From assembly GCF_030013595.1 (NCBI RefSeq), contig NZ_CP122768.1: a stretch of 64,000 bases of DNA; one strand, 5' to 3'. The first letter of the stretch is position 1; every line of letters starts with the position of its first letter. A program made the position numbers and the translations under genes. This stretch comes from Escherichia coli. GTDB lineage: Bacteria > Pseudomonadota > Gammaproteobacteria > Enterobacterales > Enterobacteriaceae. Under the pieces are notes generated by a model. It saw only the letters and a program-made list of their open reading frames with translations. It ran no database searches and was not told the DNA's origin. Below, piece after piece: positions 14,994-17,656 of the stretch.

Positions 14994-16565
14994 ATGAGCC
15001 AGCAAGTCATTATTTTCGATACCACATTGCGCGACGGTGAACAGGCGTTACAGGCAAGCTTGAGTGTGAAAGAAAAACTGCAAATTGCGCTGGCCCTTGA
15101 GCGTATGGGTGTTGACGTGATGGAAGTCGGGTTCCCCGTCTCTTCGCCGGGTGATTTTGAATCAGTGCAAACCATCGCTCGCCAGGTTAAAAACAGCCGC
15201 GTATGCGCGTTAGCTCGCTGCGTGGAAAAGGATATCGACGTGGCGGCTGAATCTCTGAAAGTCGCCGAAGCCTTCCGGATTCATACCTTTATTGCCACTT
15301 CGCCAATGCACATTGACACCAAGCTGCGTAGCACGCTGGACGAGGTGATCGAACGCGCTATCTATATGGTGAAACGCGCCCGTAATTACACCGATGATGT
15401 TGAATTTTCTTGCGAAGATGCCGGACGCACCCCAATTGCCGATCTGGCGCGAGTGGTCGAAGCGGCGATTAATGCCGGTGCCACCACCATCAACATCCCG
15501 GACACCGTGGGCTACACCATGCCATTTGAGTTCGCCGGAATCATCAGCGGGCTGTATGAACGCGTACCCAACATCGACAAAGCCATTATTTCCGTACATA
15601 CCCACGACGATTTGGGCCTGGCGGTCGGAAACTCACTGGCGGCGGTACATGCCGGTGCACGCCAGGTGGAAGGTGCAATGAACGGGATCGGCGAGCGTGC
15701 CGGTAACTGTTCCCTGGAAGAAGTGATCATGGCGATCAAAGTTCGTAAGGATATTCTCAACGTCCACACCGCCATTAATCACCAGGAGATATGGCGCACC
15801 AGCCAGTTAGTTAGCCAGATTTGTAATATGCCGATCCCGGCAAACAAAGCCATTGTTGGCAGCGGCGCATTCGCACACTCCTCCGGTATCCACCAGGATG
15901 GCGTGCTGAAAAACCGCGAAAACTACGAAATCATGACACCAGAATCTATTGGTCTGAACCAAATCCAGCTGAATCTGACCTCTCGTTCGGGGCGTGCGGC
16001 GGTGAAACATCGCATGGATGAGATGGGGTATAAAGAAAGTGAATATAATTTAGACAATTTGTACGACGCTTTCCTGAAGCTGGCGGACAAAAAAGGTCAG
16101 GTGTTTGATTACGATCTGGAGGCGCTGGCCTTCATCGGTAAGCAGCAAGAAGAGCCGGAGCATTTCCGTCTGGATTACTTCAGCGTGCAGTCAGGTTCTA
16201 ACGATATTGCCACTGCCGCCGTCAAACTGGCCTGCGGCGAAGAAGTCAAAGCAGAAGCCGCCAACGGTAACGGCCCGGTCGATGCCGTCTATCAGGCGAT
16301 AAACCGCATCACTGACTATAACGTCGAACTGGTGAAATACAGCCTGACCGCCAAAGGTCACGGTAAAGATGCGCTGGGTCAGGTGGATATTGTCGCCAAC
16401 TACAACGGTCGCCGCTTCCACGGCGTCGGCCTGGCCACCGATATTGTCGAGTCCTCCGCCAAAGCCATGGTGCACGTACTTAACAATATCTGGCGTGCCA
16501 CAGAAGTCGAAAAAGAGTTGCAACGCAAAGCTCAACACAACGAAAACAACAAGGAAACCGTGTGA
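14994..16565 (+). CDS. leuA: 2-isopropylmalate synthase
   Basis: 523-aa ORF ([23 protein letters not shown]...). Confidence 0.98.
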
Positions 16566-17656
16566 TGTCGAAGAATTACCATATTGCCGTATTGCCGGGG
16601 GACGGTATTGGTCCGGAAGTGATGACCCAGGCGCTGAAAGTGCTGGATGCCGTGCGCAACCGCTTTGCGATGCGCATCACCACCAGCCATTACGATGTAG
16701 GCGGCGCAGCCATTGATAACCACGGGCAGCCGCTGCCGCCTGCGACGGTTGAAGGTTGTGAGCAAGCCGATGCCGTGCTGTTTGGCTCGGTAGGTGGTCC
16801 GAAGTGGGAACATTTGCCGCCAGACCAGCAACCAGAACGCGGCGCACTGCTGCCTTTGCGTAAACACTTCAAATTATTCAGCAATCTGCGTCCGGCAAAA
16901 CTGTATCAGGGGCTGGAAGCATTCTGTCCGCTGCGTGCTGACATTGCCGCTAACGGCTTCGACATCCTGTGTGTGCGCGAACTGACCGGCGGCATCTATT
17001 TCGGTCAGCCAAAAGGCCGCGAAGGTAGCGGACAATATGAAAAAGCGTTTGATACCGAGGTGTATCACCGTTTTGAGATTGAACGTATCGCCCGCATCGC
17101 GTTTGAATCTGCTCGTAAACGTCGCCATAAAGTGACGTCTATCGACAAAGCCAACGTGCTGCAATCCTCTATTTTATGGCGGGAGATCGTTAACGAGATC
17201 GCCACGGAATACCCGGATGTCGAACTGGCGCATATGTACATCGACAACGCCACCATGCAGCTGATTAAAGATCCATCACAGTTTGACGTTCTGCTGTGCT
17301 CCAACCTGTTTGGCGACATTCTGTCTGACGAGTGCGCAATGATCACTGGCTCAATGGGGATGTTGCCTTCCGCCAGCCTGAACGAACAAGGTTTTGGTCT
17401 GTATGAACCGGCAGGCGGCTCCGCACCCGATATCGCAGGCAAAAACATCGCCAACCCGATTGCACAAATCCTGTCGCTGGCACTGCTGCTGCGTTACAGC
17501 CTGGATGCCGATGATGCGGCTTCCGCCATTGAACGCGCCATTAACCGCGCATTAGAAGAAGGCATTCGCACCGGAGATTTAGCCCGTGGCGCTGCCGCCG
17601 TTAGTACCAATGAAATGGGCGATATCATTGCCCGCTATGTGGCAGAAGGGGTGTAA
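16565..17656 (+). CDS. leuB: 3-isopropylmalate dehydrogenase
   Basis: ATG at 16565 overlaps leuA stop (TGATG); [19 protein letters not shown]; track used an upstream GTG at 16562. Confidence 0.96.

What the first reader, a model, noticed from the sequence alone, without database searches (positions are those of the whole stretch)
16561..16568. leuA-leuB junction offers two overlapping start codons (GTG 16562, ATG 16565)
The ORF track begins leuB at GTG 16562; the ATG at 16565 overlaps the leuA stop as TGATG and gives the familiar MSKNYH N-terminus. This is a common annotation ambiguity and indicates translational coupling.
Basis: seen in the sequence. Interest (0 to 1): 0.1.

Follow-up and report, generated by a model that had tools for sequence, protein, structure and literature searches.

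The report
Ordinary leuA–leuB start/stop overlap
At the boundary of two E. coli leucine-biosynthesis genes there are two adjacent possible start codons, but comparison with 80 related species shows that only the ATG is the real, conserved start and the GTG is a by-product of how the upstream gene ends, so this is ordinary and already correctly annotated.

Summary
Window 16560-16567 reads GTGTGATG. leuA ends GTG(Val)-TGA, with the stop at 16563-16565. In the leuB frame, GTG 16562 is followed directly by ATG 16565, giving (M)MSKNYH. The window is E. coli.

RefSeq (including K-12 b0073), the Swiss-Prot cluster representative LEU3_ECOLI and PDB 1CM7 all use the ATG (363 aa). The GTG call comes from the longest-ORF rule.

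The comparison across 80 Enterobacterales species settles it:
- The ATG is present in 80/80.
- The in-frame GTG at -3 is present in only 32.
- 36 species have a TAA stop, which makes that codon GTA.
- 9 have a 1-nt spacer, which puts the GTG out of frame.
- 42 have no in-frame upstream start codon at all.

With a TGATG overlap the preceding codon is always NTG, so a second "start" is expected about 3 times in 4. A conserved AAGGA Shine-Dalgarno inside leuA, an unstructured junction and -1 to +2 nt spacing in all species fit termination-reinitiation coupling. That coupling is inferred, not shown. Minor use of the GTG in E. coli is not excluded. Nothing here is novel and interest is low.

The parts
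14994..16565 (+). leuA (2-isopropylmalate synthase) coding sequence, including the TGA stop
   Evidence: ORF. RefSeq annotation of the 100%-identical strain and of K-12. Window coordinate = L001 coordinate + 12299.
16551..16555 (+). Shine-Dalgarno-like AAGGA for leuB, embedded in leuA codons AAG GAA (Lys-Glu)
   Evidence: Duplex with the 16S 3' end of about -5.4 kcal/mol. AGGAAA is 100% conserved in the aligned species (73 distinct sequences from 79 loci). The GAA codon is invariant, which is rare: 8 of 363 conserved-residue columns.
16560..16562 (+). Last sense codon of leuA, GTG (Val). Its wobble G is the first base of the candidate GTG start.
   Evidence: The codon is GTG in 79/80 species and GCG in 1. 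It is the only invariant codon among 30 conserved Val columns.
16563..16565 (+). leuA stop codon TGA
   Evidence: It is TGA in 44 and TAA in 36 of the 80 species, with both states found within Citrobacter, Enterobacter and Kluyvera.
16562..16564 (+). In-frame GTG directly upstream of the leuB ATG. It is a candidate alternative start (-4 'GTGA' configuration with the leuA stop) and most likely a by-product, not the functional start.
   Evidence: It is present in frame at -3 in only 32/80 species but fixed within E. coli (5388/5426 genomes).
16565..16567 (+). leuB start codon ATG (-1 'TGATG' overlap with the leuA stop)
   Evidence: Conserved in 80/80 species. It is the annotated start in RefSeq and K-12 and the first residue of PDB 1CM7/1CNZ and of the LEU3_ECOLI cluster.
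16565..17656 (+). leuB (3-isopropylmalate dehydrogenase) coding sequence, 363 aa plus stop
   Evidence: It matches 1CM7 over all 363 residues with two substitutions, C320S and D349N.
14801..14950 (+). Leucine operon leader/attenuator (context: the same transcript as leuA-leuB)
   Evidence: Rfam RF00512, 143 bits against a gathering score of 50.

Best explanation
This is the ordinary leuA-leuB cistron junction of the E. coli leuLABCD operon. leuB translation starts at ATG 16565, which shares one base with the leuA stop (TGATG), and yields the 363-residue enzyme beginning MSKNYH. The in-frame GTG at 16562 is not a selected start codon. It consists of the wobble G of leuA's last Val codon plus the TG of the TGA stop, so it exists only because this lineage uses TGA rather than TAA.

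Ribosomes are positioned by an AAGGA Shine-Dalgarno element encoded within the last codons of leuA, in an A-rich, unstructured stretch. This next step is inferred. Some of the ribosomes that translate leuB are probably the ones that have just terminated on the leuA UGA and reinitiate at the adjacent AUG (termination-reinitiation coupling). Others probably initiate de novo on the same Shine-Dalgarno element.

Shown here: the sequence anatomy, the conservation pattern, the lack of structure and the annotation status. Inferred: coupling, and the exclusivity of the AUG.
For: Anatomy. Identity: E. coli, leuA/leuB.

Annotation and databases:
- RefSeq and K-12 MG1655 start leuB at the ATG with a 1-nt overlap, 363 aa.
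- PDB 1CM7 (E. coli) and 1CNZ (Salmonella) are 363 aa and begin MSKNYH.
- The Swiss-Prot-named cluster representative LEU3_ECOLI is the 363-aa form.

Comparison of 80 species:
- ATG is present in 80/80.
- Junction types are TAATG 36 (preceding codon GTA), TGATG 32, TGA+C+ATG 9 (GTG out of frame) and TGA+AC+ATG 3.
- 42/80 have no in-frame upstream ATG/GTG/TTG before a stop.
- TGA and TAA both occur within Citrobacter, Enterobacter and Kluyvera, so the base that makes or breaks the GTG flips repeatedly.

Shine-Dalgarno and constraint:
- AAGGA pairs with the 16S 3' end at about -5.4 kcal/mol.
- Aligned spacing (DtoStart) is 15 for the AUG and 12 for the GUG, against an optimum of about 14 (PMC9841429).
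- The last leuA codons show extra nucleotide-level constraint. GAA and GTG are invariant, and only 8 of 363 conserved columns are. The block AGGAAA..G.GT is 100% conserved.

Structure and spacing:
- The junction RNA is less structured than shuffles (z = +1.43) and no conserved structure covers it.
- All 80 species keep -1 to +2 nt spacing, inside the -4..+3 window where coupling is most efficient (PMC12548453).
- 4 of 5 tested E. coli overlapping pairs were coupled and mostly Shine-Dalgarno dependent (PMC6728339).
Against: I could not retrieve direct experimental evidence for the LeuB N-terminus. No leuB entry was found in the held supplements of four of the start-site or N-terminomics papers, and a fifth (mBio) is not held in the library. 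My recollection that UniProt P30125 records a sequenced N-terminus with the initiator Met removed comes from memory only.

Within E. coli the GTG is fixed (5388/5426 genomes, none with TAA). Its spacing (DtoStart 12) is usable. In vitro, GUGUGA sites support RF2-dependent reinitiation at the 3' GUG (PMC9841429). Some initiation at GTG 16562 therefore cannot be excluded.

Coupling is untested for this pair. The strong, accessible Shine-Dalgarno element could support fully independent initiation, as reported for bioBF.
Confidence: 0.9

Rival explanations
1. Dual initiation. The ATG is the main start, but in E. coli a minority of ribosomes, especially those terminating on the leuA UGA, reinitiate at GTG 16562 (the canonical -4 'NTGA' configuration). 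This would give a minor 364-aa MMSKNYH proteoform with no distinct function.
For: The junction reads GUGUGAUG. PMC9841429 shows RF2-dependent reinitiation at the 3' GUG of GUGUGA sites and ambiguous selection at DtoStart 12/14, and GTG 16562 sits at DtoStart 12. The -4 NTGA motif is the commonest coupling motif (PMC12548453). The GTG is fixed in E. coli.
Against: An AUG lies only 3 nt downstream. In the AUGUG competition assays the AUG outcompeted the adjacent GUG 3.5-fold in vitro and about 10-fold in vivo. There is no selection for the GTG across species. No proteomic evidence was found.
Confidence: 0.2
2. GTG 16562 is the true primary start, and leuB encodes a 364-aa protein, as the longest-ORF track and a minority of GenBank records state.
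For: It is the longest ORF. The 364-aa form is deposited on 31 and 5 contigs. The Shine-Dalgarno spacing is acceptable.
Against: The GTG is absent or out of frame in 45/80 species, while MSKNYH and the ATG are conserved in all. The TGA/TAA flips are repeated. RefSeq, K-12, LEU3_ECOLI and the PDB use the ATG. By established methionine aminopeptidase specificity, fMet-Met would keep both Met residues, so this form would be a distinct species.
Confidence: 0.03
3. There is no translational coupling. leuB is translated only by ribosomes that bind de novo at its own accessible Shine-Dalgarno element, and the 1-nt overlap reflects only genome compaction.
For: The Shine-Dalgarno element is conserved. 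The initiation region is unstructured and A-rich, so no unfolding by upstream ribosomes is needed. There is precedent in bioBF, where an overlapping pair initiated de novo.
Against: Spacing stays within -1..+2 nt in all 80 species despite turnover of the stop codon and spacer. Most tested overlapping E. coli pairs are coupled, and coupling is most efficient at exactly these spacings.
Confidence: 0.25

Closest known systems
E. coli K-12 leuA(b0074)-leuB(b0073) junction as annotated in RefSeq NC_000913.3
   Same: The junction sequence is identical: acaaggaaaccgtgtgatgtcgaag. The 1-nt overlap and the 363-aa LeuB are the same.
   Different: Nothing differs at the junction. The window allele of LeuB differs from K-12 by C320S and D349N.
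-1 nt (TGATG/TAATG) stop-start overlapping gene pairs coupled by termination-reinitiation (Huber et al. 2019, PMC6728339; Huber et al. 2023, PMC10666635; review by Brown and Wade 2025, PMC12548453)
   Same: The genes are co-directional operon neighbours. The stop and start share one base. A Shine-Dalgarno motif lies inside the upstream gene. The spacing is conserved within the efficient -4..+3 window.
   Different: Coupling has not been measured for leuA-leuB. LeuA and LeuB are not subunits of one complex, which is the class the 2023 paper's title says often uses such overlaps.
GUGUGA/AUGUGA ambiguous start-stop initiation sites (PMC9841429)
   Same: A literal GUGUGA is present at 16560-16565, and the 3' GUG is in frame with a real gene. 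The UGA directly follows the 5' GUG, so RF2-dependent termination occurs next to the 3' GUG.
   Different: In that paper the annotated start lies inside the motif and the 5' codon is a de novo initiation site. Here the 5' GUG is the last sense codon of a 523-codon gene, the annotated start is an AUG 3 nt further on, and the 5' GUG sits at a short aligned spacing (DtoStart 10).
Salmonella and Klebsiella leuA-leuB junction (GTGTAATG)
   Same: The Shine-Dalgarno element, the leuA C-terminus (K/Q-E-T-V), the 1-nt overlap and the MSKNYH start are the same.
   Different: The stop is TAA, so the upstream in-frame codon is GTA and no alternative start exists. This is a natural 'mutant' showing that the GTG is dispensable.

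Membership tests
LeuB / 3-isopropylmalate dehydrogenase of E. coli | Near-identity over the full length to the solved E. coli enzyme, with the gene located between leuA and leuC | tested here: met
   Matches 1CM7 over residues 1-363 (E = 4.5e-244) with two substitutions. RefSeq gene order is leuL-leuA-leuB-leuC-leuD.
-1 nt stop/start overlap gene pair (TGATG class) | Co-directional adjacent genes whose stop and start codons share one nucleotide | tested here: met
   TGA 16563-16565 and ATG 16565-16567. The RefSeq coordinates share one base.
-1 nt stop/start overlap gene pair (TGATG class) | Shine-Dalgarno motif for the downstream gene inside the upstream coding sequence | tested here: met
   AAGGA 16551-16555, about -5.4 kcal/mol with the 16S 3' end, invariant across species.
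Translationally coupled pair (termination-reinitiation) | Translation of the downstream gene depends on ribosomes terminating at the upstream stop | not testable with these tools
   This needs reporter or premature-stop experiments. Only indirect support is available: conserved -1..+2 spacing and literature on other pairs.
Translationally coupled pair (RNA-unfolding type) | A stable structure that sequesters the downstream Shine-Dalgarno element or start and is opened by upstream ribosomes | tested here: not met
   The MFE of 16505-16625 is weaker than shuffles (z = +1.43; 191 of 200 shuffles fold at least as well). RNAalifold finds no conserved helix over the junction.
GUGUG/AUGUG ambiguous initiation site (PMC9841429) | The annotated start codon lies within an NUGUG motif, with a competing start 2 nt away in another frame | tested here: not met
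   The motif GUGUG is present at 16560-16564, but the annotated start is the AUG at 16565 and the 5' GUG is an internal sense codon of leuA. leuB is not among the 53 genes the paper lists (no occurrence).
Conserved alternative in-frame start (N-terminal proteoform pair) | The alternative start codon is conserved among orthologues | tested here: not met
   An in-frame GTG at -3 occurs in 32/80 species, and 42/80 have no upstream in-frame start.
Conserved alternative in-frame start (N-terminal proteoform pair) | Both N-termini detected experimentally | not testable with these tools
   There are no LeuB entries in the held supplements.

The most novel reading that the evidence does not exclude
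In the Escherichia lineage the leuA stop is TGA, which creates GUGUGAUG. Ribosomes terminating on leuA might then reinitiate partly at the -4 GUG and partly at the -1 AUG, so E. coli would make two LeuB proteoforms (MMSKNYH... and, after Met excision, SKNYH...). Salmonella and Klebsiella (TAA) could make only one. Separately, the invariant G at -3 in 80/80 species hints at an uncharacterised sequence requirement of this initiation or termination context.
Probability: 0.15. Interest if true: 0.15.

Novelty: already known. Interest (0 to 1): 0.06.

Why it matters
It matters very little biologically. The gene, its start codon and the overlap type are all known and correctly annotated in reference genomes. 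There are two practical lessons. First, a longest-ORF track over-extends genes: here it does so for leuB, and also for leuO, sgrR and leuL nearby. Second, any TGATG overlap produces an apparent second start codon about three times in four, so such "dual starts" should not be flagged without evidence of conservation. The junction could serve as a clean natural test case (TGA lineages against TAA lineages) for how reinitiating ribosomes choose between a -4 GUG and a -1 AUG.

Tried and rejected
Literature:
- I searched for direct experimental evidence of the LeuB N-terminus or initiation peak. I checked the supplements of TRAINSPOTTER (PMC13245402), Ribo-RET (bioRxiv 10.1101/520783), REPARATION (PMC5714196), the Salmonella riboproteogenomics paper (PMC11005335) and tetracycline ribosome profiling (PMC4909307). 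Either no files were held or leuB did not occur.
- The mBio Onc112 paper was not held.
- Full-text searches for leuA/leuB coupling or overlap returned nothing relevant.

Ideas tested and dropped:
- Shine-Dalgarno spacing does not discriminate the two codons. DtoStart is 12 for the GUG and 15 for the AUG, on either side of the optimum of about 14.
- An RNA-structure (unfolding) basis for coupling is not supported.
- I considered that the invariant wobble G at 16562 reflects selection for a GTG start. I rejected this because the G is equally invariant in the 36 species where the codon is GTA and the 9 where it is out of frame.
- I considered extended pairing of GUGAU with 16S AUCAC (seen in the duplex). 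I dropped it because the TAA species break that pairing.

Full report
**Observation**

Window 16551-16570 is aaggaaaccg tgtgatgtcg. In the leuA frame the gene ends ...Asn-Asn-Lys-Glu-Thr-Val-stop, with GTG at 16560-16562 and TGA at 16563-16565. In the leuB frame, GTG 16562-16564 is followed directly by ATG 16565-16567 and then Ser-Lys-Asn-Tyr-His. The mechanical ORF list reports 16562..17656 as a 364-aa ORF with a GTG start. That tool takes the first ATG/GTG/TTG after a stop codon, so this is a convention and not evidence.

The same convention over-extends leuO, sgrR and the leuL frame in this neighbourhood when compared with RefSeq.

**Identity and annotation**

- The region is E. coli. A 601-nt query matches 5399 of 5426 complete genomes, and one strain at 100%.
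- In that strain and in K-12 MG1655, RefSeq annotates leuA and leuB sharing exactly one base, with leuB 1092 nt, that is 363 aa.
- The K-12 junction is identical to the window.
- PDB 1CM7 (E. coli) and 1CNZ (Salmonella) are 363-residue chains beginning MSKNYH.
- The cluster member named LEU3_ECOLI is the 363-aa form.
The exact 364-aa MMSKNYH sequences are deposited on 31 contigs (K-12 allele) and 5 contigs (window allele).

**Is the double start more than chance?**

No. When a TGA stop overlaps an ATG by one base, the codon before the ATG is N-T-G, where N is the wobble base of the last sense codon of the upstream gene. Three of the four possible N give a start-type codon. In the window, 71% of NTGATG hexamers have N other than C. 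A second "start" is therefore the expected by-product of a TGATG overlap.

**Comparative test**

I fetched the leuB locus from 80 species of Enterobacterales, one genome per species, and anchored each on the codon aligned with the MSKNYH methionine.

| Junction | Species | Effect on the upstream GTG |
|---|---|---|
| TAATG | 36 | preceding in-frame codon is GTA, not a start |
| TGATG | 32 | GTG in frame at -3 |
| TGA + C + ATG | 9 | GTG out of frame |
| TGA + AC + ATG | 3 | GTG in frame at -6 |

- The ATG is present in 80 of 80 species.
- In 42 of 80 species there is no in-frame ATG/GTG/TTG upstream of the ATG before a stop codon.
- Both TGA and TAA occur within Citrobacter (10 vs 1), Enterobacter (7 vs 9, counting one TGA junction with a 1-nt spacer) and Kluyvera (1 vs 1). 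The single base that makes or destroys the GTG has therefore flipped repeatedly.
- Within E. coli the TGA state is fixed. 5388 genomes carry the exact 33-mer and none carries the TAA variant.

The conserved start is the ATG. The GTG is specific to certain lineages and dispensable.

**How the junction most likely works**

- An AAGGA element at 16551-16555, encoded by leuA codons Lys-Glu, pairs with the 16S 3' end at about -5.4 kcal/mol.
- Using the aligned-spacing measure of PMC9841429 (optimum about 14), the AUG lies at 15 and the GUG at 12. Spacing alone does not decide between them.
- That paper reports that when an AUG and an adjacent GUG competed (AUGUG sites), the AUG won 3.5-fold in vitro and about 10-fold in vivo.
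- The surrounding RNA is A-rich and less structured than shuffled controls (z = +1.43).
- No conserved helix covers the junction in the alignment of 73 distinct sequences from 79 of the loci. A coupling mechanism based on unfolding a sequestered ribosome-binding site is therefore not supported.
- All 80 species keep the stop-to-start spacing between -1 and +2 nt. This lies inside the -4..+3 range in which coupling is most efficient (PMC12548453).
- Four of five overlapping E. coli gene pairs tested experimentally were coupled by termination-reinitiation, usually depending on the internal Shine-Dalgarno element. The fifth (bioBF) was not coupled (PMC6728339).

My best reading is that leuB is translated from the ATG both by ribosomes that have just terminated on leuA and by ribosomes binding de novo. 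The coupling part is inference.

**Nucleotide-level constraint**

Across 77 species with a full leuA frame, only 8 of 363 columns with a conserved amino acid also have an invariant codon. Two of those 8 are among the last three codons of leuA: GAA and GTG. The final Val is the only invariant one among 30 conserved Val columns, where the median share of the majority codon is 0.53. The block AGGAAA..G.GT is 100% conserved.

This is what one expects of a translation-initiation region embedded in the upstream gene. One detail remains unexplained. The wobble G at 16562 is invariant even in the species where it forms GTA or lies out of frame, so it is not conserved as part of a start codon. The reason for the constraint is unknown.

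**What remains open**

The junction literally reads GUGUGAUG. PMC9841429 showed that at GUGUGA sites the 3' GUG can be used, partly through RF2-dependent termination-reinitiation. GTGA is also the commonest (-4) coupling motif. A small fraction of initiation at GTG 16562 in E. coli therefore cannot be excluded.

By the established specificity of methionine aminopeptidase (my own knowledge, not tested here), the two starts would give distinguishable products. fMet-Ser loses its Met and gives SKNYH. fMet-Met keeps both and gives MMSKNYH.

I could not retrieve any dataset with a LeuB N-terminal peptide or initiation peak. From memory only, UniProt P30125 records a sequenced N-terminus with the initiator Met removed, which would fit the ATG.

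**Verdict**

This is a real but ordinary feature, already known and correctly annotated. Interest is low.

Noticed in passing
window 19676-19935: setA is absent. leuD ends at 19675 and SgrS (Rfam RF00534, 230 bits) lies at 19709-19935 on the minus strand, followed by sgrT and sgrR. K-12 has setA between sgrT and leuD. The contiguous leuD-sgrS arrangement occurs in 2145 of 5426 complete E. coli genomes, so this is a common presence/absence polymorphism.
   Followed up: partly
window 16552-16563: The wobble G of leuA's last codon (16562) is G in 80/80 species, and the GAA two codons upstream is also invariant. Only 8 of 363 conserved-residue columns in leuA have invariant codons. The G is conserved even where it does not form a start codon, and the cause is unexplained.
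   Followed up: partly
window 13212-14240 (-), 19982-21661 (+), 14710-14901 (+): The longest-ORF track also over-extends neighbouring genes relative to RefSeq. leuO is 342 aa against an annotated 314 aa (annotated start at window 14156). sgrR starts at TTG 19982 against the annotated 20003. The leuL frame starts at 14710 against the annotated 14815.
   Followed up: no
window 17651-17661 and 19057-19072: The other leu operon junctions are also tight. leuB ends GTG TAA and leuC's ATG follows after 2 nt. The leuC stop TAA is the first three bases of a strong TAAGGAG Shine-Dalgarno element, followed by 6 nt (CACACC), so the leuD ATG begins 10 nt after the leuC stop.
   Followed up: no
window 16565-17653: The LeuB allele in this window differs from K-12 and PDB 1CM7 at two residues, C320S and D349N. 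This allele is itself common, on at least 1000 contigs.
   Followed up: no
window 16560-16565: In the leuA frame, GTG-TGA is formally a 'start-stop' pair (GUGUGA) of the kind studied in PMC9841429. Here the GTG is the final sense codon of leuA and sits at a short aligned spacing (DtoStart 10), so de novo use seems unlikely.
   Followed up: partly
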